64,000 nucleotides of DNA, from assembly GCA_000004985.1 (NCBI GenBank), contig GG738875.1; one strand, given 5' to 3'. The position numbers and the translations under genes are program-made. The notes under the pieces are model-generated. The model ran no database searches. It was not told where the DNA came from and saw only the letters and a program-made list of their open reading frames with translations. Positions 6,801 to 43,921 of this stretch are shown here, piece after piece (position 1 is the stretch's first letter; every line of letters starts with the position of its first letter). Source of the stretch: Naegleria gruberi (Eukaryota).

Positions 6801-9800
6801 TAGAATCCCTTTTCTTCTACAAGTTGTCTTACAATTTCGTTTGTAACTTGATCTCCCCAAGCATTGATTTCTGGCATGTTAATATCGTCAACAAAGACTA
6901 CCATCTTCTTGTTTTGAGGTGGTCCGTAAACTCTGAATCTCTTTTCAATATTGTCTTGAATAGTGAATTGGAAGATGTTGTGTGTTGTTGCAGAAGAAAA
7001 GTTAATCTTCTTATACATCATTGTTTCAGGGTCCAAATTGTACAAGTAGTTTTCAATTGTAACAGTCTTTGCTGTACCAGAACCACCTGTGAACAAGATA
7101 TCCCTCTTTTGTTTAGCCAAGAGTTCAATGATATAGGTTGTTCTTACAGAATCTGAAGTAGGAACGTACAAGGTACTGAATTCAAGAACATCATTTTCAG
7201 GATAATTCCAAGCAGGAATAACAGCCTTCCAATTCTTCCACTTCTTAGATGCAGGATCAACGAAAAAGTCATAAATATTTTCATCTTCACCCATATCAGT
7301 TGGGAAAATGGTTGCCTTGGATTTGATATAATCACTGAATTGTTTTCTCGCCTTTGATTCCAACAAACCACCAATAGACCAAGCAAAGGAATACCAGAAA
7401 AGCATTTCAATATGTTGCTTGTCTAATTTGATTTCTCCCTTATTAGAGTGTTCTTGAATCAACTGTGTAATAATACTGAAACAGGTCATAACTTGATTGA
7501 CTCTAACAACATTCATCACAGACTTAAGCTCTTTCTTAATATAATCAACACCATTGTCAATATGAGTTGTAAATAATGTTCTGACAATAGTTGTTTCTTC
7601 TTCCTTGAACGGAGCGACTGGTACAGAGTCACCAGTTGAAATAGTTTCATTAACTCTTCCTGCGTATCCTTTCAATCTTGATTCTAAAACAGGAGCCCAA
7701 CCAAGAACGGATTCAGAAATATAAATTTGACCAGCTCTAGAAACAGTAGCAGGAGAGGCATTATTCAAGTTTTCGACTTCGAAACACATCTTAACATCTG
7801 GGGACATTGCTAATCTATCACCGTTAGCAAGAGTCAATAACTTGTTATCATCCAAAACAGTGTTCAAATTTTCAATCCAAATAGCATCAACAGGACCATC
7901 ACAATTGATCCAAATGTGTTGCTTTCTTTGTTTGTTTGCTTGTTTCCACAAGTCAGAGAAAATACCGTCAGTCCATTCGTTTGCTACTACATCAAGTTTA
8001 CCAAACATTTGATTAGCTGTAATGGCCTTTGGATTCATTCTAAGTTGTTTATATGTTTTCTCTGGATTGAGAACACTGAGTGTCTTCAATAATATAGAAT
8101 AACAAGCACTTTTACCTGAACTGGCAGCACCGACCACCATGATACCGTGACGAACCAAACAAGTTTCATATAATTGGATCACTTTTTCCACCCAAGGTCC
8201 ATGATTTTCAAAACCATTTTGTTTGATTTGTTGTTCAAGTTGCTTTTCAAGTTCTGGAAAACGTCTCTTTTCTGCAACAATTGAAGGGAACAAGTCTTCT
8301 ACAAGAGAATTGAACAAGCTAACGTCTTCAGCGACCAATTTAGAAGTGTTCATGTCTCTGAGAGTTCTCATGAGCAAGAAGTGTTCTGATTTACCAATGT
8401 TAGCTCTCATTGTTTCACCAGCAGTTCTCAAAACTGACAAAATATTTCTGAGACCAAAATCGTAGTGAGCTTGTTTTGAAAGCTGTTGTTCACAAAGTCT
8501 GTACAAGACATCGAACTTCTTTGATAATGGTTCGTTCTTCTTGTAACCAGCAGCAGCTAACTTGACTCTAATAATAATTCTTCTGTCAGGAACCATCATA
8601 GTGACACCTCTAAACAAAACCTTCAAGTTTTCTGGAAGTTCTTGACGTCCTTGATAACCAGGATTCATAGTAATAAACATGGCTGTCTTGTCATTCAATT
8701 TACATGGTTTACCATCTGTAAAAACGAATTTCTTTTTACCATCTCTCAAGGTTGACAGAATGGATTGGACTTGTTGAGCAACGACAGACAACACTTCAAG
8801 TTCAATACGATTGAATTCGTCGAAACAACCCCAAGAACCACTTTGAGCCAAACCTCTAAAGATTTTACCCATAGCTCTATAATCCATTTGATCTGAACAG
8901 TTAAAGACAACTACATATTTACCAAGAGTTCTACCCAAATCTTTAACAGTTTCTGTTTTACCTGTACCGGCTGGACCAGCTGGAGCACCACCTAACTTCA
9001 AACCGATGGCTTGAGAGAGGGTAAGATAACATCTGTCGGTCAAAGGTGTAATGACCAGTCTTTCCTTACAACCCAAATATTCATAACAATATTCTTGATC
9101 GATATCTGCAATAGAAACAATACAAGTATCTTGATCTGGTTTCCAATAGAATCTGGCTTGTTTTTGCCAATCAAAATTAATAGTGTCCTTAACTCTATCT
9201 CTTAAAAGTTCACCGAAAACGTCACGTTGGTGAACTTGAATTGTAATAAGAGTTTCAACCTTTGTTCTTTCCAAAGGAGTCAATTCTCTTGTTGTTAAGG
9301 TTGTAAGTTCATCAAGAATAGTTGAAATTTTAGCATGGGTATTAGACATTGCTCTCTTATCAGACTTGGCTGAATTCAAAGCATTTTCACATTGTACTGT
9401 CCACACGAATTGAATACCAAGAATAGTAACTTGAGCAGGATACTTTTCAATGAAACTAGTGAGTGACATTGTGTTACATTCTTCAGCAGCATCTCTGACA
9501 ATGAAACGAAGAGTTCTTTGCATTTCTTCTTCGAGTTTTTGTAACCAATCTTCAACGTTACCTGCAGCTACAACAGCATCATTAAGAGGAACAATTTCTC
9601 CTTCAGGGGATTGCATACTCAAAATCTTGTTGTCTTGTCTAGCATCGAAAGTAACCTTTGAAATAGAGTCGAAAATTGTAATCAAAGCAGGTTGAATAGC
9701 ATGAGGATCAGATGATTGAGACAAGATTTCCAACAAAGCAGTGTCAGAGTTGAAATAGAATCTTGGGAAAATATCTCTCTTTTGTTCCAAATAACCAGCC

Positions 9801-12800
9801 AAAGCCTTTTGACATTCTTCCAAACTGATTTTAAGAGCTGGCAACATCTTCAACATTTCATTATCAAAGCAGAAACGAATAACGTTTGGAGTAGCAACAG
9901 CCTTTTGTAAAATCTTGACCCAGTTCTTATCAATGTGACTGAATTTCTTGTCTTCATGTGGCAATTGTCTCTTAATATCACCACTTGCAAATACAGGCTC
10001 AAGATAAAGCCATTGAGCTTGAACTTGTCTCCAAGCTTGAATATTTTCAGTTACAGATGTAAGCTTTTGCATCCATCCAGAGGCTAATTCTCTGAATGGT
10101 TCCAAATACTTTGAACCCATGATACCACCCAAGTTCATTTGGGCTTCTTCAAGTTGTTCCATCAATTCTTGAGTTTCAGCACCCTTCAAGATAATAGGAC
10201 CACGGTGTTTGTATTCAGCGAAAGACAATTCTCTATCCTTCCATTCTTCAGTAAGCTTTTTCAACTTGTCTTCAATTTCTAATTCCTTACGAGCTGAGTT
10301 ACAAACATCTTCGACTTCTTCCTTACATGCAAGTAAATTAGCTTCCAAAATGTCTTTAAGTTTAAACACATCGTCTTCCTTCTTAAATTGCTTCTTTGTG
10401 AGGGCTTCCAAACGTTCCCAATGTCTTTCTCTCATAGATGGATTCTTAAGTTGATCCAACAATGGTTGTAATTCTAAGAAATCTTCAATAGTTTGTCTCA
10501 AATTTTCATAAGCCTCAATGCCTTTTGCAGCTTTCTTTAAAGAATTACATTTAGTAGCAAACTTGTTGACTTCATCAGTAATGGCTTGGAAATCAAGTTC
10601 AGACCACAATAACTCTCCATAACTACCAACTTGTTTCTTAACCTTAATGTATAAATCGTACAAGGTGTCGTATAACTTTAACATCTTTTTCATCTTTGCA
10701 AGATCTGGGTATTCTTGCATTGGCAATCCGAATAATTTTTCACCTTCTCTGTACACTTCATATTTTCTTTCTCTTTCAGCATACAGTCTTTGGAATTTGT
10801 TCAGTCTTTCTCTAGCTTCTTCAGGTGCAATATCAGGTACTGCAGGCCCATTAAGTGTAAAATCTTTACAGAATTGCTCGACATCGGTTTTAAAGAGCTT
10901 TACCTCAGAAATTAATCTTGTCTTGAACCCACTTTGAACCTTAGAAATAGTTTCGTTAACTTTACTGGCCAATCTAGTCAATTTCTCCCACTTGAAAGCC
11001 AGATCGTAAACTTCATCAATTTCTTCCTTAGGAACATTTACAGAGTACTTTTTCAAAATAGAATATCTGTCAGCAATTTTAGAGAAATCATATTCAATCA
11101 TTGCTTCCCTAGATCTAATATCCATAACAGTACCCATGACAAATCTCAAGTCTTCAAGGTTTGCAATTTCTTGAGATAATCTCTTTGTAGATTCATCCAT
11201 CATTGTCAAATAGTTGTTCAATTCTTCCTTTGCACTTTCGTGAAGGTTATTGGCATATTGAACTTTCCATTGAATAACTAGCTGGAGTATGGAATTCTTC
11301 AATCCTTCTGCATCCAAAAAGAATGGACCCACAATACTTGATGTCTCCATTTGGCCAATCTCATTTTCAAGAACTGTGTATTTGTTCAACTCCTTTTCAA
11401 AATCATCAAGAGTTGGCTTCTTATCAACACATTTATCAACAAACTTTTTGTAGGCTGTTTGTTTGTCTTCCTTCCAGAGATAGCTGTACTTTTCGTATTT
11501 AGCCATAAATTGCTTAATTTCTTTTTGTAATAAAGCACAAGCTCCACTAGATGTCATTACCAGTCTAATAACATCACAGTCTCTGGATACTTCTCTGTTG
11601 AAGTGAATCTCTGGTTTGCACCTCCATGGTTGGATTGCCTTTGGAGATCCTAAAACAGATTGAACAACTCTGTCAATAGACTCTTGAATTTCTTCAAGGT
11701 TAGGTTTGAGAATTACATCAGGAGCTGCAAGTTCAAAACCAATTTTGAAAATTGGATCACCATGTGTGTCCTTTCTTGTTCTGCTTCTAAAGTAATGCAA
11801 AGACTTTACGACAGAATTCAGTAAGTTTTCTAAAATTGTTCTATGGTAAAATTCTTTAAGTCGAGTCAACAAATCTGGAGTAATTGTTAGTTTTGTTTCC
11901 TCGAATGGAAAACCAGAAATTACTTCTAAAATATCCTCTACGGCTCTTTCTATTTCAATACTCTTATTGTTGAGCTGTTCAGATAATTCTTTTGAGTATT
12001 TGTCTTGTGTATCTACAATTTGTTCAAGAGTGGAATCTTCTCTTTCAGGGAGCAAGAAAAATCCAGTATTTGATATATCCTTCAAATTTTTGTCGATTCT
12101 TCCATCGATAATATCATTAACCTTAAGTAATACATCTTCTAACTTTTCCAGTGTCTTGTGAATTCTCTTTAAATAAACTGAAATATTCATAGAAGTCCAT
12201 GAAAGAGTTGTAACACCAGGATCAATTTTCTTCTCAAGCTCGTCAATATGTGGTTCAAGTAATGGCTTTACATCATCTTTAACCATAGAAAGAATTCTTG
12301 CTCTTTCCTTCAAAACAAAGGATAACTCGTTGTAATATCCTTTGTATTTTTGTTCTTGAAGGAGAACAGTTTTACCCACATCTGGGATTTCAACTCCAAG
12401 TCTCATTAACCATTTGGCTTCTCTAATGAGTTGAATTATTTCAATATCAAAGTTAACAAAGAGTCTATCTTCAACCTTAATAATCAAAGTTGCCAATAAA
12501 CCGTCCTTTGCCTTTTCAACATATTTCTTCCAAGCTTCCAACCATGAGGTTTCAAACTTGATTAAACCCATCAAAACCTTGTTGTATGTTTTGATAATCT
12601 TCTTTGATTCCTTACTTTGCATAATAGTTGGGATTTGTTGGAATTTAGTCATTGGCTCCTCTATTCTTCTCATAAGTTGTCTACACCAAATAACTTTTCC
12701 GGCAACGGGTGGGGCATTTCTTACCAATGGTGGTTTAACTTTGAATTTTTCATATAGCTTTTGAATGTTATCAAGTTGGAATCCATAGTTGTGGAAAATT

Positions 12801-27602: not shown

Positions 27603-30344
27603 ATGCCTATGAAAAAGACAAACCACAGGCTGAAGTGGAGTGTGGGAAAATATATTATATTCATAACAATATTAATAGTAGCTTTTTCTATTATAATATC
27701 ACATCAAGAACAAGTTAATCAAAAGAAAAAATCTAATAATCAAAATTCGGAAGAGGAAGAACCAAAGTTTATAATTTTGAAAGATGGTGATGAATCTGAG
27801 CTTGAAAACCTTCCTGAAGAGTTTAAACAAAAAATCAAGGAAGCTTTATTGAAAGTTAAGAGTAATATTAATTTTGAACAAGCTCCCCCAGAATCAAATC
27901 CTTTAAATAATAATATGCCTGATCAACAACAGACTAAAACTTCCCAAACAACCAAACCAACACCTCAAGTTGAAGAGACATTGGATACATCAATGTTAAG
28001 TGATATTTCTATTCCTTTGGATGAGATAACAATTCCAACAGAATATTCCTCAACATTGGATGAAGAGTTCACTAGAATTAAGAGAATGAAAGAATTAAAA
28101 CTTGTAACAAGAAGAAAATTCATGTCTAAAAAACTCAATGATTTGAGAAAACAACAAGAAAATGAAATTGATGGAAAGAAGGATTCTACAGAAAAATTAT
28201 TAGAAGCAAGAATGATTTTGGATCCCGATCTTCCAGAGTATGACAAAGAAGCTGTTGAAAAGGCAATTGGAATTTATCTTTCTGTTGTTAAAGAAGATCC
28301 AACAAACCCACTTGTATTGTATAATTTAGGAACAGTATATAAGGTAAGATTTTCTGAGAATATTAATGACTAATTGTTTAATTAGAGTGAAAAATTTGGT
28401 GTTAGAGACTTTTCCAAGAGTAAAATGTACTACATTTTGGCAGCTTATTTAGGTAGTCAAATGTCACAATTCGAGGTTGCTCTATTGTATAATAATAACT
28501 TGATTTCAAGCAAGGATTTAGAAAATGTGAAAAGTTTAATGATTGAGATATTTGGACCAGTTGAAACAATGAAAAAGCAAGTCAAACTAATTTATGAGAA
28601 GATTCCAAAATCTATTGAAAATCCTGAAACATTATCTTTGTTGAATCTTTTCTATAGCTCTTTAGGAGGAAATACTGGAGCAAATATTGCTTTGGGATAT
28701 AGACATATGTTCGGACATGGCGTACCAAAATCTTGTAAAACAGCTAGCTATTATTATTCGAAAGCAGCTTCTGATGTTATTGTCGAGTTTGAGGATAGCA
28801 GAATGCCTCTTATTGATCATGTAAGACTTAATGATGAGAGTGCTATTCAAAATAAGCAATCACAAGAGGATATTATGGAATATTACCAATATTCTGCTAG
28901 TAAGGGATCATCTTCATCGATGCTTATTTATGGTTATGCTAATTTATATGGTATAAGAGGTGTCGAGCAAAATGGAGAAGTTGCTAGAAGATTATTTGAA
29001 CAAGCTGCTGAGGCAGGAGAACACGAGGCTTTTGGCGCTCTTGGTAATATGTTCCTCAAGGGTGCTGAAGGTATTCCAAGAAATAATGAGACAGCTTTCA
29101 AGTACTTTAAGAAGGGAGCAGACAAAAAAGATCCATCCTCATTAAATGGGCTTGGAAAGATGTACCTTGAGGGATCAAATGATGAACAAGGAAATATCAT
29201 TCTTGAAAAGAATTTTGAATTGGCAGCTGGATATTTCAATAAGAGTGCATCATTGGGCAACTCTGAAGCTCATTATAATTTGGGTCTTTTATATTTGGAT
29301 GGTAAGGGTGTAAAGAAATCATTTAAACAAGCAATGCAACATTTTGCGATTTCAGCTCAACATGGTCAAGTTCTTGCCAAATATCAACTTGCCAATATGT
29401 ATCTTCATGGATTGGGAACTAATCCAAATTGTGAAATTGCTGTTAAATTCTTAAAATCTGTTGTTGAGAAGGCCTCATGGACTTCAGTAATGGAGAGTGC
29501 TTTTGAAAAGTTTGTATCAGGAGAGGATCAACATACTGCTCTTCTACTTTACCAACATGCTGCAGAAATGGGTATTGAAATAGCACAAGCTAACATTGCT
29601 TTCATGTATGACAGAGGATATGGATTTGAGGAAATTTCCAGTGGATTATCTGAAGAGGAAAGTGAATTGTTAAAATTCAAGGGAGCTATCAAATGGTATC
29701 AACAAGCAGCTGAACAAGGTAATGTTGATGCGTATGTCAAAGTTGGGGATTATTACTATTATGGTTCATCTGCTTTATCATCTTCAAACTCTTCTGTTGG
29801 AAGTTTAGAACAATCATACGAAAAGAGTATTTATTTCTATAGAAGAGCTAAGGAATTGAACAATGCTCAAGCAATGTTTAACTTGGGTTATATGCATGAA
29901 CATGGAAAGGGACTTCCACAAGATTTCCATTTGGCTAAAAGATATTACGACATGGCATCTGATGCTGATCCAGTAGCTTATGTTCCAGTTATTTTGGCCT
30001 TGGGTAAATTATATGGTCATTGGGGATTTTATTTAGTTAAAGATTATGTAACAAATATTTTCAATGAAATGCCAAGTAGTGAAATAGATGAAACCTCAAA
30101 CTCTGATATTTCAACTTGGTTGGTCAATCTCATAATTGAACATGAGGATTACTTTTTGGCTATTCTAATTGGTGGTCTAGCCCTACTTATTTTTGTCAGA
30201 CATGTAGTGAATAGTCAAGCTAATGCAAGACCAAGAAGACGTAGAGTAGTCACTACCACTGAAAACACTCAACAAGAAGATAACGTTAGAAACCAACAAC
30301 CAGAAGAGCAAGAAGAACACAATCAGCACGAACACCAAGAATAA
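27603..30344 (+). CDS. SEL1L / Hrd3-like Sel1-repeat protein (ERAD adaptor). Model: join(27603..28343,28386..30344), about 899 aa
   Basis: N-terminal signal/anchor (YIIFITILIVAFSIII). Many Sel1 repeats (AHYNLGLLYLDGKGV..., AMFNLGYMHEHGKGLPQD...). C-terminal TM helix (LAILIGGLALLIFV) followed by a basic/Gln-rich tail. A 42-nt intron (28344..28385, GTAAGA...AATTAG) joins the two track ORFs in frame. Confidence 0.75.
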
Positions 30345-30395
30345 ATATTTGGCGCCTTTTTTAAACTACAATACAACACCACAAACGCAAAAAAA

Positions 30396-33300
30396 ATGAG
30401 AGAAGATACAACTGAGAATTACAGTGAGGATGCCTTTATTGGTCATACATCGCTGTCAAATCTTCATCTTGTACTTCAAAATATATTTCTTCCATTCTTA
30501 TCAGATCAAAACGGACAAGAGGATGAAAATAATAATACAAACAATCAAAAATATGGTGAAACCTTACAAAATATACATACCCTAAATTCTGATTTCATAT
30601 CACATTTGAAAAAGTTTAGTGGACAAGTTGGATATACAGTTAAACAACTCTCTGGAGAAGTATTGATTGATTTACCGGAAGTGCATTTGGATGATCCCAA
30701 GACAGCAGCAGAGGATGAACATGTAAGTTTTTTATTTGATACTTGATGAGCTAATTATTAATACAATTAGATTGTTCAAAAATTGGAAGCATGCCTTAGT
30801 AGTTGGACTCAATCTATTAACTCCCTTTTAGAAAAGGTTGTGAATCAAGAAAGAGAAGGAGAGGTAAGCATTATTTGAAATTAAAATTCTAAAAAAATGA
30901 TTTAAAAAGGGACCTCTCTCCGAAATTGATTATTGGAGAACAAGACACGCTTCACTAGGAACAATTTGGGAATCACTAAATAGTAAAACTGTAAAGAATG
31001 CTATAGAAGTGCTCCGAATTTATGATGCACAATTATTACCTGGTTTTGATGACCAATTTCAAGAATTAACTAAATTATACATGGAAGCAAAGGAAAATGT
31101 AAAGTTTTTACAAACTCTTGAACGTCACTTTAAAAACATTTCACAAGCAAGAGGTTCATTAACACCAATTTCCGATACACTTCCTTCTATGATGAATGCC
31201 ATCAGAATGGTTTGGGTAATTAGTAGATATTATAATACAGACAAGAGAATGATACCTCTTATGGAATTAATTGCTCAAGAAATTTGCTTGAAAGTATCAC
31301 AATATATTAACCTAGAGACTAGTTTAGATGTAAATAATATTTTTAATAATCCGTACAAGTTAGCAGAAAGACTTCAAGAGGGAGCTGAAGTTTTACAAAA
31401 ATGGAAAACTGTATGTTTAAAAATTTAAATTTATTTATTAATATTGCTCTAGACCTACTTCCATGTAAGAGAAAAAATAGAAAATACAAGTAAGGATGAA
31501 CGTTGGCATTTTGAAAAGGACTCACTTTTTGAACAATCTGATTACATGTCAGAAAGATGTTACGAGTTGAAAGAATTAGCAATTTTTATTGGAAGATATA
31601 AATCATTTTTAGGTCCAGAATTGAGAAGTATGTTTTTAATTCTATCATTTTTTTAAATTTTATTTTAATCCATTAGATATTACTGGTGAAAGTGGTATTG
31701 ATGAAATTTTGGATAGATTGAAAGATCTTGTTACACCATTCCAACAAAATGCTAATTTAATTTTTAATAGAAATGCACAAATGAAGTGGATTGAAATATT
31801 TAAACAATTTAAAGAAAATTCAGAGGAAATTAAAATACAAACCAACTCATTTATTGATAAGAGTTTCAAGAAATTGAGATCAGCAGAGGGTGCCTTTAGG
31901 CTTTTACAAGATGTTAGAAAGATTCACAGCCAAGACAAAGACTCTATAAATCAAAAGATGATGCTCAAGTCGATAGATATTCTTGAAAGATATGGAGAAG
32001 AAGTTGATAATATTTATCAAATTTTCAACAATGAAAAATCTAATCCACCAAGAACAAAGAATATGCCACCAGTATCTGGAGCTATTTATTGGTCTCATTC
32101 ACTCTTTGAAAGAATTAGAAAACCAATGATTTTGTTCAAGGAGGCTCCAGATATGTTGGATACAGATGAAGGAAAGAAGATTCAAAATAAGAGTTTTACA
32201 GTAGCTAAAGAAATTCTAGAATTTGAAGAAACTAAATTTAAGGAATGGAAATCAACAGTGACGGAAGATACTATTAAATACTTGAAAGGCAATATTTTAA
32301 TGAAAGATGGTAATAAGATTGTTGTGAACTTCCATGCTAAACTTTTATTATTAATTCAAGAAACCAGATATCTTGATAAACTAGGTAAAAAAGTCCCAGA
32401 AATTGCTTTGAATGTAACTTTGCAAGAAGAAAAGTACCACAAGTACATTGAAAATCTCAGAGGAATGATAGAAAATTTCACTCAATCAAAGGATTCATTA
32501 GATAAGGCTGAAGAAAAGGTTCTTGCTCCTTTGATTAATAGATTGAAGAAAATATTAGAACCTGGATTTTCTGTTCTGAATTGGAACTCATTAGGTATTG
32601 ATGAGTTTATCAAAAGATGTAACACGGAAATCTCAGATTTTCAATCAATTGTGCAGAAAATGCAAAGAAACGCATCTGTAATCCGATCCTTAATCCAACA
32701 ACTCAAGAGTCCTTTTGCTACAAAACTGGACTTGAATGGAGAAATGATCACTTTACCAGAATTGGTTGAAACTATCGAAAGAAATGTTCAACAAAAAAGT
32801 GTCAGTCTTGCCAAGAAATACAAAACTATTGGTCAAACTTTATTGAAGATGGAAGGAGACCTCATCAATAGTAATGTTATAGAGAGTGAAAGTAAATCAG
32901 CAACAGGAAGAGAAAAGCTTTTACAGGGCTATTATGCCTATTGGGAAAAGAGAATTTTTAAAGCTCTTGTAAAGAATGTATCCTCAAGTATTGATGAATT
33001 GATGGATTTCCTGTACTTGAGTAAAAAGAAGAAGAATATCCCAATTAAGAAGAATCCTCTTCTCAAAGTTAACGTTTCATTGTATCACAAAGCTATTGCA
33101 ACATCACCAGATTTGGATGATATTTCAGATATGTTGGATAAGATTGTTAATAGCCCTATCAATGCTACTAAACATTTCGTGAGATGGTACAGTGGTACCT
33201 GCCATGAAATTACAAACATTGAAGTCAAAACAGAGAGGGATGACCAAATTGATATTCCTTCGATTATTGCTAATCACTTCTCTTTCTTCAATGAAATTCT

Positions 33301-36300
33301 TCAAATTCCTTTAATTACCAAGAAAGTTTTACTTTTAAATAATGGTATCCAGAAAACTTTAACTAATGTACAAAGATTTGTAAATACCTACACCAAATAC
33401 CAAGAGTATTGGAAGACACCAAAAGAAATGGCTATGGAAAAGTTTGGTAGTAAAGACCCTTCATGGGATGCCTATTACAGAAAATTGGAAGACTATCATA
33501 GATTGTTAGAAGATATTAATTCTCATACAAAACCAATCAAGGATTTAGAATTTATTAGAATAGATTCAACATCATTTATAAAATCCTTCACAGATGAATT
33601 GAGAAAATGGATTGAAGCAATGTCCAAATTATTAAATAGCAATATTGAACCTAAAGCCAAGGAATTAAATGCTAAAATTGATAGCTTCAAGGAGGGGTTA
33701 ACAATTGAAATCAAGGAACTTGATGATTTGAGAAAGGTACTTTCAGTAATTGATGAAGGTAGATCTAGCTCTGCTGATATAGAACGAGAATATAGAGAAG
33801 TTGAGGATGTTTACCATACTATGATTTCTTATGGTGTTAAAATTCCAACTGAAGAAATGGAACTTGTTAATGGACTGAGATCAAAATGGGAAAATTTAAT
33901 GGTAGCCTCAAAGGAAATGGAAATTGAATTGATTCCACAAAAAGAAAGATTCACTTCTGAGACACAAAAGAGAGTTTCTCAATTCCAAATTGAAGTTACT
34001 AAATTGAAGGACGAATTTGATAAAGGTCCAGGTAATCCATCAGTACAATTGGAAGAAGGTCTCGAACAAATGGAGTCACTTAAAGGTGCTATGGAAGAAA
34101 AGAAAAAGACCAGAGATTACCTTGTTCAATCAGAAAAATTATTCGACCTACCAATTACTCCTTATCCAGATTTTGTGCAACTCGAAAAGAAGATGGCCAA
34201 GTTTGGTAAGATTTTCGAAATATTTGGAGATTGGCAAAAGAAGCTTACCAAATGGTCTAGAACTCTTTGGGTTGAAGCTCCTATTGAAGAAATGACCAAA
34301 GAAACCTCACGATTCTCCCAAATGTTGATTAGTAAGAAGGAATTCCCTCAAGAGCTTCAAGAATTACCTGCTCACAAGACATTTAAGAGTAAGGTTAAAC
34401 ATTTCCAAAAGACCATTGAATTACTTTCATGTCTTAAGAGTGAAGCATTGAGAGAGAGACATTGGGAGCAATTGATGAAAGCTACAGGTAAAAACTTTGA
34501 TATCAATCCATCAACATTCACATTGAAAAATTTGATTGATATGAACTTGTATGAACACGAAAATAGTATTAATGAAATCACAGAATCTGCCAATAAGGAA
34601 CTTGATGTTGAAAATACAATTAAGAAGGTTGCTGAGGTTTGGAGAAATAGAAAATTCGATCTCAAGAAGCACATTAGAGATGGTGAAGATAGAGGTTTTG
34701 TTTTGACCGGTATTGATAGTGTAAAAGAACAATTGGAAGAAGATACTGCCAACTTGGCTGCCATTTCTGGTACTCAACATTCTGTACCTTTTGCTGCTGA
34801 ACTTAGCAAATGGGAAGGATATCTTTCTAAGATTGATGAAGTTACTACTCTTTGGGTAGATGTTCAAAGAACCTGGATGTACCTTGAAATCATTTTTATT
34901 GGTTCAGAAGATATTAAGGATCAATTACCAGAACAAGCAAAAGCCTTTAAGAAGATCGATACTGATTGGGCTAAAACTATGGCTGAAACAGCCAAGAATA
35001 GAAATGTGTTGGAGAATTGTTGCCAAGGAGGTGACAAACTTTCCCTCATGTCTAGTCTACAAATAAGACTCAACGAATGCCAAAAGGGTTTAAACAATTA
35101 TTTGCAATCAAAGAGAAACGCCTTCCCAAGATTCTTCTTCATTTCAGACAATGAGTTGCTAAGTATTCTTGGTTCTTCTGATTTGAATACTATCCAAAAG
35201 AGTATTGGTAACTTATTTGAAAACTGTGGTAGTCTTATTATCAAACCAAACACTAATTTAGTTTTAGGTATGGTTTCCAAAGAAGGAGAAGAATACACAT
35301 TCGATAAACCTGTAAGAGCTGAAGGATTTATTGAAAAATGGTTAACTGCTGTTCAAAGTGAAATGAGAAAGACACTCAAAATTATTATGAAAAAATCCGT
35401 CTACGCTTATCCATCTGTTCCTAGAATTGATTGGATCAAAGAGAATCTAGGAATGGTCACTTTGTGTGGCTCTCAAATTTGGTGGACTTGGGAAGTTGAG
35501 GATTCCTTTAGAAGAGTTAAAAATGGTGAAAAGATGGCTGTTAAAAATTTGGCTGTTTTACTCACTCAAAGATTGAACGCTTTGGTTGATGAAGTTAGAA
35601 CACCTCTTAATTCTCAAGTTAGAAAAAAGATTACCACCATGATTATTATCGATGTTCATGCCAGAGATATTGTAGACAGATTGGTAAGAGACAGTATTTT
35701 GGACGAAAGAGAATTCGATTGGGAAAGTCAATTGAGATTCTATTGGGACAAATCTGCTAACGATGTTAAAATTAGACAATGTACTGGTGAATTTGACTAT
35801 GGTTATGAATATATGGGTCTTAATGGTAGACTTGTTATTACTCCATTGACTGATAGATGTTTCATGACTTTAACTCAAGCTCTTACATTTAATTTGGGTG
35901 GTTCTCCATCTGGTCCTGCAGGTACAGGTAAAACAGAAAGTGTTAAAGATTTGGCCAAGAGTTTGGCTCTTATTTGTATTGTTTTTAACTGTGGTGAAGG
36001 TCTTGACTACAAGGCTATGTATATGAATTTTTCAGGTTTGTGTCAAACTGGTGCTTGGGGATGTTTTGATGAGTTCAACAGAATTGAATTACCTGTCCTT
36101 TCTGTCGTTTCTACTCAAATCAGAGAAATTCAAAGCGCTCTTAAGGCAGCAAAGGATGAATTTAGATTTGAAGAAGAAGATATCAAACTCGATAGAAAGC
36201 TTGGTATCTTTATTACTATGAATCCAGGTTATGCTGGAAGAGTAGAATTACCTGACAATCTCAAAGCATTGTTCAGACCATGTGTCATGGTAGTGCCTGA

Positions 36301-39300
36301 TTTGGAAATTATTTGTGAAATCATGTTGTTCTCTGAAGGTTTCAACTCTGCCAGAGTTTTGGCTAGAAAGATGACAAAACTTTATCACTTAGCCTCTGGA
36401 CAACTTTCAAAACAACACCACTACGATTGGGGTCTCAGACCACTCAAATCAGTCTTAGTTTTTGCCGGTAGATTAAAGAGAGAAAATCCAGAAAAGAGAG
36501 AGGATGAACTTTTAATGAGAGCTTTGCATGACATGAATGCTCCAAAGTTTGTTTATGAAGATACGCCACTCTTCCACGATTTATTGAATGATCTTTTCGT
36601 AAATATTTCATATGAAAGACTCACTTATCCAAAACTTTACAAGGCTGTAGAAGAATCATTACAAGAAAAAGAAATGAAGTTACTTGAAGATGGTAGTCAA
36701 GTCGATAAGGTTATTCAAGTTTATGAAACCCTTGAAACTCGTCACTCTGTCATGATTGTTGGTGAAACTCAAGGAGGAAAAACAGTTGTTTTCAATGCTC
36801 TATGCTCAGCATTGAAGAAGGCTTTCAACTTTAACGTTAAACAATTGGTAATGAATCCAAAAGCTCAAGGTTTGGCAGAATTGCATGGCGTGCTTAATAA
36901 GGATACCAGAGATTGGACTTATGGTTTACTTTCATACTACTTTAAGGAACTTAACCAACCTTGTGAAAAGGGTAATGAAAGAAGATATCTTGTTTTTGAT
37001 GGTGATGTAGATGCTGAATGGATAGAAAATATGAACTCTGTCATGGATGATAACAAGATTTTGACTTTACCAAATGGTGAAAGAATTACTCTTCTCAACC
37101 CTCTCTGTTCATTAATGTTTGAAGTTGGTAACTTGAAACAAGCTTCTCCTGCCACTGTCAGTAGATGTGGTATGGTCTATGTAGATCCTAAGAATCTTGG
37201 TTTTGAACCATTTATTTGGACTTGGTTAAATCACAAGCTCAAGAAGGATCACCCAGAGAAAGTTGAAGTAATGCAACGTTTATTCGAAAAATATGAAAAG
37301 TCTTGTGTTGACTATGTATTGAAAGGTATTGATCTTGATGGTTCATTTGTTGAGAGACTCAAATTGAACGTTGTTATGAATTCTGTCAGTTTGGTATCAC
37401 AACATTGTAATATGCTTGACGTAATATTTGCTGATCCAGAACAAAATACTGAAGATGAAAGAGAATTAGAGTGCCTCTTTGTTTTCTCTCTTATTTGGTC
37501 TGTTGGCGCTGTTGTTGTGGATAACGATAGAAAACGTTTTGATGACTTTATTAAGAAACTCACAAAGTGGAAATCTGTAGATAATGGTGAAAGCTTGACT
37601 GACCATTTTGTTGGTGTTGGTTGTTGTCCTTCAAGATTGACACTTTATGAATATTTCTTTGATATTAATAATCACCAATGGAAACCTTGGAAGGTTGCTG
37701 TCCCACTTTACACTCCTCCAGCTAATGGAAGATTCTCTAGTATTATTGTTCCAACTGTTGATACAGTTAGATATACTCATTTATTGAGTTCATTTGTATC
37801 ACTTGGTAAGCCAGTACTCTTTGTAGGCTCTTCAGGTACTGCCAAGTCAGTCATGATCAAGAACTTTGTTAAAGACTTGACAGACAAGAATGAGAAAATG
37901 ACTAATTTATCTATTAACTTTTCTAGTAGAACATCTAGTTTGGATTTGCAAAGAACCATCGAAGACAATATTGAAAAGAGAGTTGGTGATAACTACGGAC
38001 CTTTACAACAAAAGAAGATGATAGTCTTTATTGATGATATGAACATGCCAAACTTTGACAAATATGGTACCCAACAACCTATTGCTTTATTGAAATTGAT
38101 GTTAGAAAAGCAAGGTTTCTATGAACGTAAAACTACCAATCTGGCCTTTATGAGATTACTTGATATGCAATACGTTGCTGCCATGCAACCAACATTTGGC
38201 AGTAATGCTATGGATCCAAGAATTGTTTCTAAATTCAATGTGCTTAATATTTCTTTCCCATCTGATGATTCTATTGACCATATTTATAGTTCCATTTTAA
38301 GTCATCATCTTACAAACTTCTCTCAAGAAATTCAAGATGTTAGTTCAAAGATAACCAAGTCAACTATTAGATTGTACAAGTATCTTGTAAATTCACTTCC
38401 TCCAACTCCTTCCAAATTCCACTACCTCTTCAACTTGAGAGATTTGAGCAGAATTTATGAAGGTTTATGTTTATCTACTATTGATAAGCAAAACGAGGCT
38501 GCAAAGTTTATTAGATTGTGGAGAAATGAACTTTTGAGAGTTTTCCATGATAGACTTATCTCAGTAGCAGATAAAACTCTCACCATCAATGCTATTGAAG
38601 ATGAAATCAAGACTGTTTTCCATAGTCACTCAGAATATGTTCTCAGAAATCCAATTGTTTATGGCGATTTCCTTGACTTCCAAGATCCAAATAATCCAAG
38701 ATTATACGAAGATTTAACGGATTATGATAGAGTTAAGCCTGTTATTGAAGATGCCATCAATATTTACAATGAAAGACCAGGTATTAAGAAATTAGATCTT
38801 GTAATGTTCGAAGATGCATTGGAGCATTTAACTAGACTTTTGAGAATTGTTAGAATGGATAGAGGTAATGCTCTCCTTATTGGTGTTGGTGGTTCTGGTA
38901 AACAAAGTTTAACTAGACTAGCATCTTTTGTTGCTGGATATGAGTTATACGAAATCAAACTCTCAAGAGGTTATAATGAAAATCAATTCCGTGAAGATTT
39001 GAAGAATTTGTACAGAAAACTTGGTGTAGAAGATAAGAAAGTATTGTTCTTGTTTACTGATGCCCATGTTGTAGAAGAAGGATTTTTGGAATTCATCAAT
39101 AATATGCTTTCATCAGGTGTTGTTCCTGCATTATTCGAAGATAATGAAAAGGATGAACTCTACAACGCAGTATCTAAGGAAATTAAGACGACTAACATTG
39201 TTCCAAATAAGGAAAATATGTGGAACTTCTTTATTAACAAATGTAGAAATAATTTACACATTGTCCTTTCAATGACACCTACAGGTAGTACCCTCAGAGT

Positions 39301-42300
39301 TAGATGCAGAAACTTCCCAAGTTTAGTTAGTAGTACTACTATTGACTGGTTCACTTCTTGGCCTTCCCAAGCTCTCAAAGAAGTTGCTAACCAATTCTTG
39401 TCAGATGATTCAGTTCCGCAAGAATTGTTGCAATCTATCAATACTCATATGATTTTCGTACATCAAAGTGTTGAGAAATATAGTAATAGATTTGCTCTCG
39501 AATACAGACGTTATAACTATGTTACACCAAAGAATTATCTTGATTACATCAATACTTACAAGAGATTACTCAATGAAAATAGAAGTAAGATTGATGAAAT
39601 GATCAAGAGACTTGATGGTGGTTTGAAGAAACTAAGAGAAGGTAAAGATGAAGTTGAAGAAAGAAAGAAGGAATTATCTGAAGCCTCTGAAATTCTCCAA
39701 ACAAAGTCTGTTGAAAACCAACAGCTTCTTCAAGTTATTAGTGAAAGACTTACAGAAGCCTCAGAACAAAGTAAACTCCAACAAGAAAGAGAAGAAGAAA
39801 TTAAGAAGGAACTTGAAAACATTCAAAAGCAAAAGATTGAAGAAGAAGAGAAGTTAGCTGTAGCTGAACCCGCTGTTAGAGCTGCAGAAGAATCTTTGAA
39901 GAAACTTGACAGAAATGCTATTACAGAAATGAAGTCATTTGCCAGTCCTTCCCAAGTCATTCAAGATGTTGGTGCTTGTATTTATATCCTCTTAGAAGAT
40001 GATTCTCCATCACAAATTACTTGGTCTAATGTTAAGTCTATCATGACTGAAGCCTTCTTTAACAGATTGGTTACCTATGAAAAGTCAAGACTTACATCTA
40101 ATAAGATTAACAAAATTGAAACTATTTACAGAAAGAACGGTGATGCCATGAAACCTGAAGAAATTGCTAAAGTTTCAAGTACATTGGCTGAAATTATTAA
40201 GTGGGTTAACTCAATGAGAGAATACTTTAATGCTATGAGGGTCGTCAAACCAATCAGAAAGAAGAAGGAAGAAGCCGAAAGAAAGCTTGCCTCATTCACA
40301 GAACAATTAGCAACCATCAAATCAAAGCTCATTAAGTTAAAAGAGGATATTGCTGAATACAAGGTAAAATATCAAAGAGGTCAAGAAGAAGAAAAGAGTT
40401 TGATTGAAAAGAAATTAAGTATGGAAGCTAAACTTACAGCTGCCAACAAACTTATTGAAGGTTTAGGCTCGGAAAGAGAAAGATGGGCTCAACAAATTCA
40501 AGAACTTGCAGAAAAGAAGAATAGATTAATTGGTGATTGTTTAATTTGTTCAGCATTTTTGAGTTACACTGGTGCCTTCACTGTTGACTTTAGAAAGGAA
40601 ATGATTCAAGAATGGATCAATGAAATGAAGGAAACAGAAATTCCACTTACATTCCCATTCGATATTGAAGATATTCTTACTGACGATGTTCAAAAGAGTC
40701 AATGGGCATATGAAGGATTACCTTCTGATAAGATTTCTACTCAAAATGGTGTTCTCACAACCCACGCTTCAAGATTCCCTCTTTGTATTGACCCTCAACT
40801 TCAAGCTGTTAAATGGATCAAGAACAAGGAAAAGAACATTAGAGTTTGCTCTTTTAGTGATTCTGACTTTATGAGAAAGATTGAAAATGCTATGAAATAT
40901 GGAGAAACTGTACTTTTTGAAAATGTTGATGAAGTTATTGATCCAATGATAGATCCTGTTTTGGATATGGAAATTAAGGGAAAGAAGAGAATTGTTAGAA
41001 TGGGTGGTGATGAAATTGATGTTGATCCGAAATTCAAACTCTACATGTGTACCAGAATTTCCAATCCTCATTACACTCCTGAAATTGCCAGTAAGACAAT
41101 TATTATCAACTACAGTGTTACTGAAGAAGGTTTAGAAGAACAATTATTGAATATTGTAGTCAATCATGAAAGACCAGAACTTGAAGAAGCAAGAAGAGAA
41201 TTGGTTCAAACAATGTCTGAAAGCAAGACTTTACTTCAACAATTGGAAGCAAAAATTTTGAAGGAATTGAACTCTACAGGAGGTGGTTCCCTTATTGATA
41301 ATGTTGAATTGATTCATACTTTAGAAGAAACTAGAAACAAAGTACGTGAAATCAACACAAAGATCATTCAGACAAAGCAAAACGAGAAAGAAAACTTTAA
41401 GGCTAGACAAGGCTATAGACCTGCTGCAAAGAGAGGTACTATTCTCTACTTTGTCATGTCCAGTTTATCAAATATTAACTCTATGTATGAATATTCATTA
41501 TCTTCATTCTCACAAGACGTCTTTGAAACTTCATTGTCAAGAAGTCAACCTTCAAGAATGTTAGAAGGTAGATTGGATAATATTGTTGACTACTTGACCA
41601 AGTCAGCATATAGTTATACATGTGCTGGTTTGTTTGGTGTGCACAAACTTTCATTCTCTCTCCAAATTGTTCTCAAGATTATGGATAGTGAAACTAGACT
41701 TAATCAAGCTGAACTTGATTTCTTCCTCAAGGGTGATCTAACAATTGGTCTTGAAACTCCAAATCCATGTGAATGGTTATCTGAAAGCAGTTGGAAAGAT
41801 TTGTTAGCCCTTTCAAAGATTTGCGAAAACTTAAAGGGATTATCTGAAGACGTTACCAATAATTCTTTATGGAAAGAATGGTATGACCATGCTGAGCCAG
41901 AAGCTTTACCTCTTCCAAACGAAAAATATCAAAGTGTTGTTACTCCATTCCAACAAATGTGTATTCTTCGTTGTTTGAGACCTGACAGAATTGTAGTTTC
42001 TGCAACCAAGTTTATTGCAGATGAGATGAAGAATGAATATTTTGTCAAACCACCTGTTCTCACTTTTGAAAATATCTTTAGTCAAAGTTCCAAGCTTTCA
42101 CCAATTGTTTGCATGATCAGTCCTGGTTATGACCCAGCAAATGACATTATCAAACTTTCAAATGAACTTGATAAGAGAGTCAAGTATATTTCTCTTGGTG
42201 AAGGTCAAGGTGAAAAAGCCCTTGCTTTGCTTGAAAAAGGTATTTCTAAAGGCATGTGGGTTCTTCTTCAAAATTGTCATTTGTTGGTTGATTGGATGAA

Positions 42301-43921
42301 GAATGTTGAACACATTTTAGAAAAACTTGAAAAGGATAAGGTTCATGATGAATTTAGACTCTGGTTAACAACTGAAGTTACTCCAAAATTCCCTATTGGT
42401 ATTCTTCAACGTTCTCTTAAGGTTGTCACAGAGCCTCCAAACTCTTTGCAACTTAACATGAAATCAACATTTTCTAATATTTCTGATCCAGAGTTAGATG
42501 AATGTCACCACAAATCTTTCAGACCATTAGTTTATGTTCTGTCTTATTTCCATGCTGTTATCCAAGAAAGAAGAAAGTATGGTAAAATTGGTTGGAATAT
42601 TCCATATGATTTCAACAAGTCTGATTTTGATGTCAGCTTCAGTCTTATTAGAACATATTTGAATAAGGCATCAATGTATAATGATCCAATTCCATGGGAC
42701 AGTCTCAAGTACCTTGTTGGTGAAGCTATGTATGGTGGTAGAGTTACAGACAAGTTTGACAGAAGAGTTCTTACTACATATCTCAATGAATTTATGGGTG
42801 ACTTCTTGTTTGATACCTTCCAACCTTTCCGTTTCTACGAAGATGAAAGTGTTTGTTATGAGTTACCACCAATGGAAAGAGAAAAGCTTATCGGAAAACA
42901 AAATATGATTGTTCCACTTGCTGTAGAAGATTTCTCTGAATTTATTGAGAGGAACGTTAAGCTTACAAACTCTCCAAGCGTTTTTGGTTTGCATCCTAAT
43001 GCAGAAATTGGTTACTTGACCAATTCTACATCTAATTTGTGGAGTGATCTCATATCTTTACAAATTGGTGTATCTTCTCATGGTGGTAAAGGAACTGGTG
43101 ATGAATATATCAAATCAGCCCTCAGCATTATCCCAGAACCATTTGATAAGGAAGAAATTCAATCAAAGATTCTTCAAAAGTCAAGCAAGCTCACTCCAAT
43201 TAATGTAGTCTTACTTCAAGAAATTGATAGATGGAATGCTCTAGTAGCAGTTATGAAGAGATCATTAATTGATTTGCAAAAGGCTTTGGCTGGTGAAATT
43301 GGTATGAGTGAAGAACTTGAAAATTTGAGTAATTCCATTAATATTGGTATAGTTCCTCAACTCTGGAAGCAAATGGCACCACCAACAAGATTGAATTTAT
43401 CTTCATGGTTAGAACATTTCAAGGAAAGATATAGTCAATATGTTGATTGGATTAAGTATGGTGAAGATCCTGTTGTTATTTGGTTGAGTGGTTTGCATGA
43501 ACCAGTTTCCTACATCACTGCTCTTATTCAAATGACATGTAAGAAATACAAATGGCCTCTCGATCGTACAACTATTACAACTAGAGTTACAGAGTACAGA
43601 GCCTCACATCAAGTCAAAGAAAAGCCTCAAGATGGTTGTTATGTGCGAGGTTTATTCTTGGAAGGAGCTGCTTGGGACTTGAAGAATAGATGTCTTAAAA
43701 CACAAAATCCAAAACAATTGAGAGAAGAACTTCCTATTCTTGAAATTATTCCAACAGAAAACTCCAAAGTCAAATTACAAAATACTTTCAATGCACCTGT
43801 TTATTATACTCCAGATAGAAATGATGGTGGTAATAAGGGATTGGTATTTGAAGCTAATCTCCAAACTGATGAACACGAAAGTATTTGGACCTTACAAGGT
43901 GTTGCAGTAACAATGACTTAA
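30396..43921 (+). CDS. Axonemal dynein heavy chain of about 4,446 aa (inner-arm-like). Model: join(30396..30722,30771..30863,30910..31410,31453..31627,31677..43921)
   Basis: Four short 5' introns of 48, 46, 42 and 49 nt with GTAAGT, GTAAGC, GTATGT and GTATGT donors. They join the track ORFs 30396.., 31009.. and 31709.. in frame. The N-terminal DHC_N1 signature is present (SMMNAIRMVWVISRYYNTDKRM). AAA1 P-loop GPAGTGKTESVKDLAKSLA...FNCGEGLDY...WGCFDEFNRI. AAA2-4 P-loops GETQGGKT, GSSGTAKS, GVGGSGKQ. Stalk and C-terminal domain are present. The final 12.2 kb is intron-free. Confidence 0.85.

What the first reader, a model, noticed from the sequence alone, without database searches (positions are those of the whole stretch)
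30396..31676. Strong 5' intron bias in the dynein gene: four introns in the first 1.3 kb, none in the next 12.2 kb
Introns 30723..30770, 30864..30909, 31411..31452 and 31628..31676 all lie within the first 1.3 kb. The first three are phase 0 and the fourth is phase 1. The remaining 12,245 nt form one exon, and the sister dynein gene on the other strand has no introns at all. This pattern is the classic signature of intron loss through recombination with reverse-transcribed mRNA primed from the 3' end.
Basis: partly seen in the sequence, partly recalled or inferred. Interest (0 to 1): 0.5.

Follow-up and report, generated by a model that had tools for sequence, protein, structure and literature searches.

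The report
Old 5' introns in Naegleria dynein
A giant flagellar dynein gene of the amoeba Naegleria gruberi does keep four tiny, evolutionarily old introns in its first 1.3 kb and none in the remaining 12.2 kb, but this is a clear example of a pattern already well known in intron-poor microbes.

Summary
The window comes from Naegleria gruberi NEG-M. The + strand gene (30396..43921) is the inner-arm I1/f alpha dynein heavy chain, the orthologue of DNAH10 and Chlamydomonas DHC1. It has four canonical GT-AG introns of 48, 46, 42 and 49 nt, in phases 0, 0, 0 and 1. All four lie in the first 1,281 nt, and a 12,245-nt terminal exon follows. Composition and comparison with the orthologue show no hidden intron in that exon.

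N. lovaniensis has all four introns at identical sites. Willaertia magna has sites 1 and 4. A more distant heterolobosean contig has sites 1 and 2. An unrelated protist lineage has sites 2 and 3. The introns are therefore old and retained, and the intron-free 3' body predates the Naegleria/Willaertia split.

The minus-strand dynein (14392..890) is intronless. It is an ancient paralogue of the outer-arm gamma/DNAH5 class, not a sister gene.

The reverse-transcriptase reading is plausible but not shown. No ancestral 3' intron could be demonstrated. The only polarisable loss, in Willaertia, removed internal introns and kept the 3'-most one. The 5' intron bias and its cDNA explanation are already in the literature, so interest is low.

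The parts
30396..30722 (+). Exon 1 of the I1/f alpha dynein heavy chain gene (327 nt, aa 1-109), with an A-rich leader before the ATG
   Evidence: The N-terminus and product length match the N. lovaniensis (4,447 aa) and W. magna (4,451 aa) orthologues.
30723..30770 (+). Intron 1 (site 1): 48 nt, GTAAGT..TAG, phase 0, after His109
   Evidence: The same site and phase occur in N. lovaniensis, W. magna and contig L002.
30771..30863 (+). Exon 2 (93 nt, aa 110-140)
   Evidence: The exon is also 93 nt in N. lovaniensis.
30864..30909 (+). Intron 2 (site 2): 46 nt, GTAAGC..AAG, phase 0, just before the conserved GPLxEIxYWR motif
   Evidence: Shared with N. lovaniensis, L002 and the non-heterolobosean contig L003; absent in W. 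magna.
30910..31410 (+). Exon 3 (501 nt, aa 141-307)
   Evidence: The exon is also 501 nt in N. lovaniensis.
31411..31452 (+). Intron 3 (site 3): 42 nt, GTATGT..TAG, phase 0, between Thr307 and Thr308
   Evidence: Shared with N. lovaniensis and with L003, where it is a 21-nt intron, GTACATTTAAACTTACGTCAG. Absent in W. magna and L002.
31453..31627 (+). Exon 4 (175 nt, aa 308 to the first base of codon 366)
   Evidence: The exon is also 175 nt in N. lovaniensis.
31628..31676 (+). Intron 4 (site 4): 49 nt, GTATGT..TAG, phase 1, in codon 366
   Evidence: Shared with W. magna (38 nt) and N. lovaniensis (45 nt, in frame, at first missed by tblastn). Absent in L002-L007.
31677..43921 (+). Exon 5: one 12,245-nt terminal exon (aa 366-4446 plus stop) encoding the rest of the tail, the linker, AAA1-6, the stalk and the C-terminal domain
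   Evidence: A continuous ORF. The full set of dynein Pfam domains is present. The best matches are Chlamydomonas I1 alpha, human DNAH10 and IDAf-alpha. No AT-rich island and no insertion relative to N. lovaniensis.
890..14392 (-). Intronless outer-arm dynein heavy chain gene (gamma/DNAH5 class): 13,503 nt, 4,500 aa plus stop
   Evidence: A single ORF with its first ATG at 14392. The best matches are Chlamydomonas ODA gamma and human DNAH5. No intron-like low-GC island.
27603..30344 (+). Upstream Sel1-repeat membrane protein gene (context). It has one 42-nt intron at 28344-28385 and its stop lies 51 nt before the dynein ATG. Its orthologues were used to fetch the syntenic dynein loci.

Best explanation
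The feature is the ordinary exon-intron structure of the Naegleria gruberi inner-arm I1/f alpha dynein heavy chain gene. A relic cluster of four old, short spliceosomal introns survives in the first 8% of the coding sequence, and the remaining 12.2 kb has no introns.

Shown: the introns are real, and their positions are inherited. All four occur in N. lovaniensis, two in Willaertia magna, two in a deeper heterolobosean contig, and two in an unrelated protist lineage. The intron-free 3' body was already present in the common ancestor of Naegleria and Willaertia.

Inferred: the ancestor of this gene had more introns. This follows from the general reconstruction of intron-rich early eukaryotes. 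Those introns were most likely removed precisely, by gene conversion with spliced cDNA copies of the mRNA. Such copies seldom include the extreme 5' end, so the 5'-most introns survived. The same process continues piecemeal, as in the precise joint loss of adjacent introns 2 and 3 in Willaertia.
For: Reality of the introns. The four-intron model of the N. lovaniensis orthologue reproduces its annotated 4,447-aa product, with exon lengths 312/93/501/175/12,263 against 327/93/501/175/12,245 here.

Inheritance of the sites:
- Site 1 is in N. lovaniensis, W. magna and L002.
- Site 2 is in N. lovaniensis, L002 and L003.
- Site 3 is in N. lovaniensis and L003.
- Site 4 is in N. lovaniensis and W. 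magna.
Each match is at the identical codon and phase. L003 falls outside the Naegleria/Willaertia/L002 clade in a neighbour-joining tree.

Age of the large exon: it runs unbroken over aa 366-3278 in W. magna and aa 366-4446 in N. lovaniensis.

Ongoing precise loss: W. magna lacks sites 2 and 3, with no indel and no stop at those points.

Introns elsewhere in relatives: the heterolobosean contig L002 has at least four introns at about aa 1429-1946 that Naegleria lacks.

No embedded element: intron interiors are 44-65% identical between N. gruberi and N. lovaniensis, no better than the shuffled expectation of 61%, while the exons are 82% identical.

Background: the 5' bias in intron-poor unicellular eukaryotes and its cDNA explanation are reviewed in PMC3488318 and PMC3652778. 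Between 30 and 50% of N. gruberi intron positions are shared with other supergroups, which is compatible with descent from an intron-rich ancestor (PMC3174169).
Against: - No 3' intron could be shown to be ancestral. Motor-region introns in L002, L003, L004, L035, L045, L057, L061, L082 and L090 are all at different positions. Most of the roughly 80 metagenomic orthologues have none, although many of those contigs may be transcripts.
- The only loss with a known direction, in W. magna, removed internal introns and kept the 3'-most one. It therefore shows no 3' bias.
- One poly(A)-primed cDNA would need to be at least 12.2 kb long to clear the region, so several events or internal priming have to be assumed.
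- Other genes in the window keep introns 116-650 nt from their 3' ends, at relative positions 0.60, 0.68 and 0.82. A 1,847-aa N. lovaniensis gene has introns along its whole length. A simple gradient measured from the 3' end therefore does not describe the genome.
- No reverse transcriptase source or processed pseudogene was examined.
Confidence: 0.6

Rival explanations
1. Selective retention. Introns were lost throughout the gene by whatever mechanism, but 5'-proximal introns are kept because splicing close to the promoter benefits expression (intron-mediated enhancement, or help with export or transcription). This might matter for a gene whose upstream spacer is only 51 nt and which must be strongly induced during the switch from amoeba to flagellate.
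For: All four sites and exon lengths 2-4 are conserved exactly between N. gruberi and N. lovaniensis even though the intron sequences have fully diverged. Site 1 is kept in all four heterolobosean orthologues. The upstream spacer is very short in all three species, at 51, 73 and 63 nt. The literature lists a selectionist explanation as an unrefuted alternative.
Against: The neighbouring outer-arm dynein gene has no intron at all. W. magna has dispensed with two of the four introns. Most protist orthologues sampled have no intron over the region covered, about aa 70 to 3,340. The introns contain no conserved sequence. Nothing here measures expression.
Confidence: 0.2
2. 5'-biased gain. The gene was largely intronless in the heterolobosean ancestor, as it is in most protists sampled, and some of the four introns (sites 1 and 4 especially) were inserted later near the 5' end. 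On this view the pattern says nothing about loss.
For: Sites 1 and 4 were found only within Heterolobosea. Most orthologues from other lineages have no intron over about aa 70-3,340. Intron positions in the motor region are lineage-specific, which is what independent gains would produce.
Against: Sites 2 and 3 are shared exactly with L003, which lies outside the heterolobosean clade. Two exact coincidences are very unlikely by chance. All four sites predate the N. gruberi/N. lovaniensis split, and at least three (sites 1, 2 and 4) predate the Naegleria/Willaertia split. General reconstructions favour loss over gain in intron-poor protists.
Confidence: 0.12
3. Artefact. The four segments are not introns but assembly errors, frameshifts or mis-set coordinates, and the true gene starts at the large ORF.
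For: Homopolymer frameshifts do mimic introns in some metagenomic orthologue contigs (L006 and L007). No RNA data were available.
Against: The segments have canonical GT-AG ends, strong GTAAGT/GTATGT donors, a GC of 0.14-0.21 and stops in all frames. The DHC_N1 alignment is unbroken only after splicing. Introns with diverged sequences sit at the same sites in two independently assembled genomes, and the product lengths agree. The same splice rules reproduce two annotated N. gruberi proteins exactly, EFC43194 and EFC43192.
Confidence: 0.01

Closest known systems
5' positional bias of introns in intron-poor unicellular eukaryotes, with the mRNA-mediated (reverse transcriptase) model of intron loss (Fink 1987; Mourier and Jeffares 2003; reviewed in PMC3488318 and PMC3652778)
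   Same: The surviving introns are crowded at the 5' end of the coding sequence. The donor sites are strong (GTAAGT/GTATGT), as is typical of intron-poor genomes. Introns are lost precisely, and adjacent introns are lost together in a relative (W. magna).
   Different: The gene is extremely long (13.3-kb CDS), so the intron-free tract is 12.2 kb. The one loss with a known direction is internal, not at the 3' end. Other genes at the same locus keep introns near their 3' ends.
'Extraordinarily large exons' as evidence for mRNA-mediated intron loss (Niu, Hou and Li 2005, Mol Biol Evol 22:1475; cited in PMC3652778)
   Same: A giant exon on the 3' side of a gene that keeps short 5' exons.
   Different: I did not read that paper's data. 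The resemblance rests on its title and on how PMC3652778 cites it.
Inner-arm dynein I1/f alpha heavy chain (Chlamydomonas DHC1, PDB 8glv chain Cn; human DNAH10, PDB 8j07 chain k8; IDAf-alpha, PDB 9e5c chain 5h)
   Same: These are the best matches over the whole of exon 5, at 3,700-4,020 bits against about 2,400 for the next class. The domain order is identical.
   Different: The N-terminal extension before DHC_N1 is about 190 residues shorter than in the Chlamydomonas and human proteins. This shortness is shared by N. lovaniensis and W. magna.
Outer-arm dynein gamma heavy chain / DNAH5 class (PDB 7kzm chain C; PDB 8j07 chain n0), for the minus-strand gene
   Same: The best matches score about 4,030-4,060 bits, against about 2,450 bits for the I1 alpha class.
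   Different: The gene has no introns at all here. It is an ancient paralogue of the + strand gene, not a recent duplicate.

Membership tests
Spliceosomal (U2-type GT-AG) introns | GT at the 5' end and AG at the 3' end, with a consensus donor | tested here: met
   All four start GTAAGT, GTAAGC or GTATGT and end TAG or AAG.
Spliceosomal (U2-type GT-AG) introns | Removal restores one open reading frame that the segment otherwise interrupts | tested here: met
   The spliced CDS is 13,341 nt with one terminal stop. Unspliced, all frames are blocked. DHC_N1 aligns without a break only after splicing.
Spliceosomal (U2-type GT-AG) introns | Orthologous introns at the same codon and phase in related genomes, with diverged intron sequence | tested here: met
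   N. lovaniensis has all four, W. magna has sites 1 and 4, L002 has sites 1 and 2, and L003 has sites 2 and 3. Intron interiors are no more alike than shuffled sequence.
Spliceosomal (U2-type GT-AG) introns | Spliced junctions observed in RNA | not testable with these tools
   No transcript data for N. gruberi could be reached. Only indirect support exists: the annotated product length of the N. lovaniensis orthologue equals the four-intron model.
Signature of reverse-transcriptase (mRNA-mediated) intron loss | Extant introns biased to the 5' end of the gene | tested here: met
   All four lie within the first 1,096 of 13,341 coding nt. P = 4.5e-5 under uniform placement (and my calculation).
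Signature of reverse-transcriptase (mRNA-mediated) intron loss | Losses are precise, with no indel at the former junction | tested here: met
   W. magna aligns without a gap or stop across sites 2 and 3, and L002 does so across sites 3 and 4.
Signature of reverse-transcriptase (mRNA-mediated) intron loss | Adjacent introns are lost together | tested here: inconclusive
   W. magna lacks the adjacent pair, sites 2 and 3. This is a single case, and two separate losses cannot be excluded.
Signature of reverse-transcriptase (mRNA-mediated) intron loss | Observed loss events are biased to the 3' side | tested here: not met
   In the only loss with a known direction, W. magna kept the 3'-most intron (site 4) and lost the internal sites 2 and 3.
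Signature of reverse-transcriptase (mRNA-mediated) intron loss | Demonstrable ancestral introns in the region that is now intron-free | tested here: inconclusive
   The sister-lineage contig L002 has introns at about aa 1429, 1751, 1798 and 1946. No motor-region intron position is shared between any two lineages among about 90 orthologue loci, so their ancestry cannot be shown.
Signature of reverse-transcriptase (mRNA-mediated) intron loss | A reverse transcriptase source in the genome, or processed pseudogenes of the gene | not tested
   Only this 64-kb window of N. gruberi was available, and no search for retroelements was made.
Inner-arm dynein I1/f alpha heavy chain (DNAH10/DHC1) | Closer to known I1 alpha chains than to any other dynein class, over the full length | tested here: met
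   The matches score 3,612-4,022 bits to 8glv_Cn, 8j07_k8, 9e5c_5h and 9y6s_7G, against 2,419 bits or fewer for DNAH2 and outer-arm chains.
Inner-arm dynein I1/f alpha heavy chain (DNAH10/DHC1) | Complete dynein heavy chain architecture (DHC_N1, DHC_N2, AAA1-6, stalk, C-terminal domain) | tested here: met
   The Pfam hits lie in the canonical order.

The most novel reading that the evidence does not exclude
The 5' intron cluster might be actively maintained and not just left over. On this reading, promoter-proximal splicing is needed for the strong induction of this 13-kb transcript, whose upstream spacer is only 51-73 nt in three species. The gene would then be a natural test case that separates 5'-anchored selective retention from 3'-anchored reverse transcriptase processivity, since a single cDNA tract would have to exceed 12 kb.
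Probability: 0.12. Interest if true: 0.4.

Novelty: already known. Interest (0 to 1): 0.15.

Why it matters
The finding adds a clean, well-documented example to an established picture of intron evolution. An intron-poor free-living protist keeps a few old introns at the 5' end of a giant gene. Comparison with close relatives shows precise, piecemeal intron loss still under way.

Its modest value lies in how extreme the case is, with a 12.2-kb exon. The comparative data also caution against treating a 5' bias on its own as proof of 3'-primed reverse transcription. The one loss with a known direction is internal, and introns near the 3' end survive in neighbouring genes. The finding does not open a new question.

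Tried and rejected
- Exact look-up of the two dynein proteins in the protein collection failed. No hit exceeded 1,315 aa, so very long proteins may be missing from what that search returns. The N. gruberi assembly itself seems not to be indexed for contig retrieval. I could therefore not compare my model with the official N. gruberi gene model. I used the annotated product lengths of the N. lovaniensis and W. magna orthologues instead.
- tblastn HSP boundaries used as intron detectors misled me twice. They read straight through the in-frame 45-nt intron 4 of N. lovaniensis, so I first scored it as lost and corrected this by gap and stop analysis. Apparent 'introns' in L006 and L007 turned out to be poly-A homopolymer frameshifts.
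- Many 300-400-nt 'junctions' around aa 571-590 in metagenomic contigs are insertions in a variable region, not introns, and were ignored.
- I tried to show that 3' introns are ancestral by scanning metagenome contigs with the AAA1 region. No intron position was shared between lineages, so the attempt was inconclusive.
- I considered a general rule that Naegleria introns are confined to the first ~1.4 kb of a CDS, which holds for every intron in this window. I rejected it because a 1,847-aa N. lovaniensis gene has breaks along its whole length.
- I looked for a conserved element inside the introns and found none.
- Literature searches for the two sample accessions (PRJEB11402, SRR32315874) found nothing. 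The N. gruberi genome paper is not held.
- L050 has an intron 4 nt upstream of site 3, in phase 2. I did not count it as shared.
Full report
**Source and genes**

Five intronless ORFs in the window are identical to annotated proteins of Naegleria gruberi NEG-M (EFC43189, EFC43190, EFC43195, EFC43113, EFC43118; scaffold of 396,166 bp). The window is compact, with about 34% GC, the standard genetic code and short intergenic spacers.

Exon 5 of the + strand gene scores 3,600-4,020 bits against Chlamydomonas I1 alpha (8glv_Cn), human DNAH10 (8j07_k8) and IDAf-alpha chains. The next dynein class scores about 2,400 bits. The gene is therefore the inner-arm I1/f alpha heavy chain.

The minus-strand gene matches Chlamydomonas outer-arm gamma and human DNAH5 best, at about 4,030-4,060 bits against about 2,450 bits for the I1 alpha class. 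The two genes are ancient paralogues of different classes, not sisters.

**Checking the observation**

From the ATG at 30396, the four proposed introns are:
- 30723-30770 (48 nt)
- 30864-30909 (46 nt)
- 31411-31452 (42 nt)
- 31628-31676 (49 nt)

All have GT-AG ends and strong donors (GTAAGT, GTAAGC, GTATGT). Their GC is 0.14-0.21 and their phases are 0, 0, 0 and 1. Splicing gives a 13,341-nt CDS (4,446 aa) with one terminal stop and a last exon of 12,245 nt. Unspliced, each intron closes all frames. After splicing, Pfam DHC_N1 aligns without a break, residues 111-676 to profile positions 1-562, across junctions 2-4. Junction 1 lies two residues before the domain.

The same splice rules applied elsewhere in the window reproduce two annotated N. 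gruberi proteins exactly. These are the MFS transporter EFC43194 and the proteasome beta subunit EFC43192.

**No hidden introns**

Within the + strand gene, the only 40-nt windows with GC <= 0.15 are introns 2-4 and three short coding stretches before 33584. Aligned with the N. lovaniensis protein (86% identity), N. gruberi has no insertion longer than one residue after aa 51. No 14-residue island of low identity occurs in the large exon.

An intron of this size and composition would escape ORF analysis only if its length were a multiple of three and it had no in-frame stop. By my estimate that is about 7% of cases.

The minus-strand gene is a single ORF from ATG 14392 to the stop at 890 (4,500 aa). 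Its N-terminus aligns with homologues from about residue 94 of the extended ORF, which is residue 66 of the protein. It contains no intron-like island.

**More than chance**

With introns placed uniformly on the CDS, the probability that all four fall within the first 1,096 of 13,341 nt is 4.5e-5. The other genes of the window carry at least eight well-supported introns in about 26 kb of ORF, or about 0.3 per kb. At that density about eight introns would be expected in the 25.7 kb of intron-free dynein sequence (Poisson P about 4e-4). These figures are rough.

The other introns lie at relative positions 0.09, 0.17, 0.27, 0.60, 0.68 and 0.82. A 1,847-aa gene of N. lovaniensis has breaks along its whole length. 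The extreme 5' clustering is therefore a property of this gene and not a rule of the genome.

**Comparison with orthologues**

The upstream Sel1-repeat gene has orthologues in N. lovaniensis and Willaertia magna. In both species the dynein follows it directly, with annotated products of 4,447 and 4,451 aa.

In N. lovaniensis all four introns are present at the same codons and phases, with lengths of 50, 59, 50 and 45 nt. The four-intron model gives exactly 4,447 aa. Its exon lengths are 312/93/501/175/12,263, against 327/93/501/175/12,245 here. I first scored intron 4 as absent because tblastn read through this in-frame intron. Gap and stop analysis corrected that.

W. magna has introns only at sites 1 and 4. 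It aligns without a gap or stop across sites 2 and 3 and is open from aa 366 to the end of the locus at aa 3278.

A Logan contig (L002, 49-52% identity) groups as sister to Naegleria plus Willaertia in a neighbour-joining tree. It has sites 1 and 2 and lacks sites 3 and 4. It also has further introns at about aa 1429, 1751, 1798 and 1946.

A metagenomic contig from a different clade (L003), with 19-22-nt introns, has exactly site 2 (..KGN|GTATACAAAACTTATTCAG|GPVAEIDYW) and site 3 (EAWSN|GTACATTTAAACTTACGTCAG|TYFQ).

Its relative L004, Schistosoma curassoni (L005), L006 and L007 have none of the four sites within the stretches of the gene they cover. L050 has an intron 4 nt away from site 3, which I do not count as shared.

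**What follows from the comparison**

Each of the four introns is shared with at least one other lineage, so they are inherited. At least sites 1, 2 and 4 predate the Naegleria/Willaertia split. Sites 2 and 3 are probably much older. The giant intron-free exon also predates that split.

Loss continues in small steps. W. magna lost the adjacent sites 2 and 3 precisely. Between N. gruberi and N. lovaniensis the intron interiors are no more alike than shuffled sequence (44-65% against 61%), while the exons are 82% identical. The introns therefore carry no conserved element.

**Mechanism**

The 5' bias of introns in intron-poor unicellular eukaryotes is established. So is its usual explanation, recombination with cDNA that under-represents the 5' end. 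A selectionist alternative stands alongside it (PMC3488318; PMC3652778). N. gruberi shares 30-50% of its intron positions with other supergroups, which is compatible with descent from an intron-rich ancestor (PMC3174169). This gene fits that picture, and I take ancient cDNA-mediated loss as the most likely cause.

Three points limit the claim:

1. No 3' intron could be shown to be ancestral. A scan of metagenome contigs gave 80 more orthologue loci. Most have no intron over about aa 70 to 3,340, though many may be transcripts. The few introns in the motor region are all at lineage-specific positions.
2. The only loss with a known direction, in W. magna, spared the 3'-most intron.
3. Neighbouring genes keep introns within 116-650 nt of their 3' ends, and a single 3'-primed cDNA would need to exceed 12 kb.

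The retention rival gains some support from the exact conservation of all four sites and from the very short upstream spacer (51, 73 and 63 nt in the three species). It is weakened by the intronless outer-arm gene next door, by the two losses in W. magna and by the many intronless orthologues.

**Verdict**

The phenomenon is already known. Interest is low.

Noticed in passing
window 30345-30395; L009 12769-12841; L010 12635-12697: The stop codon of the upstream Sel1-repeat gene lies only 51 nt before the dynein ATG. The spacing is 73 nt in N. lovaniensis and 63 nt in W. magna, on the same strand. The dynein promoter must therefore overlap the 3' end of the upstream gene, or the two genes share a transcript. 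Both dynein genes have an A-rich run just before the ATG.
   Followed up: partly
window 890-14392 (-) and 30396-43921 (+): Two axonemal dynein heavy chain genes of different classes (outer-arm gamma and inner-arm I1 alpha) lie 16 kb apart in divergent orientation. I did not test whether flagellar genes cluster in this genome.
   Followed up: no
L001 (= window 18368-22605) and L008 (= window 47314-49506): Contigs from an ENA metagenome assembly (ERZ929261, PRJEB11402) are 99.3-99.7% identical to the window. A near-identical N. gruberi strain, or laboratory DNA, is therefore present in that sample.
   Followed up: partly
L011 6599-7756 (N. lovaniensis, between the deoxyhypusine synthase and proteasome beta genes): A 385-aa gene with a PF12323 HTH_OrfB_IS605 domain (TnpB/Fanzor-like) and a neighbouring 507-aa gene are present in N. 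lovaniensis. In N. gruberi only about 320 nt separate the same two flanking genes (47347-47668). This is a lineage-specific insertion or deletion of a mobile-element-type gene.
   Followed up: no
L003 (JGI 3300081899) and L004 (ENA ERZ28573510), whole loci: These come from an unidentified protist lineage that uses the standard code and has 19-22-nt introns (GTA...CTTA/CTAA...AG). One intron splits the AAA1 P-loop region (GAPA|GPAGTGK). Two of the L003 introns coincide exactly with Naegleria sites 2 and 3.
   Followed up: partly
L006 about 2420-2435; L007 about 1555-1565: Apparent ORF breaks in these metagenomic orthologues are single-base errors in A7 homopolymer runs, not introns. They could easily be mistaken for introns when intron positions are inferred from prokaryote-style gene calls.
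   Followed up: yes
window 30396-30722 (protein aa 1-110): The N-terminal extension before the DHC_N1 domain is about 190 residues shorter than in the Chlamydomonas and human I1 alpha chains. The shortness is shared by N. lovaniensis and W. magna, so it is a feature of the lineage and not a missing exon.
   Followed up: partly
window 16743-16793, 17423-17496, 26127-26171, 28344-28385, 46047-46093, 47150-47288, 49289-49422, 51643-51679: These are other short introns (37-139 nt) in neighbouring genes, at relative CDS positions from 0.09 to 0.82. Two of the resulting models match annotated proteins exactly. Four others (Sel1, Ariadne-type RBR ligase, a syntaxin-like protein, cornichon) did not match exactly. 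For the syntaxin-like gene a further upstream intron (17423-17496) explains the mismatch; for the other three the start codon or additional introns probably differ from my models.
   Followed up: partly
L050 about 335-480: A marine metagenome orthologue has a ~147-nt intron 4 nt upstream of Naegleria site 3, in phase 2 instead of phase 0. This may be intron sliding or an independent insertion near the same spot.
   Followed up: partly
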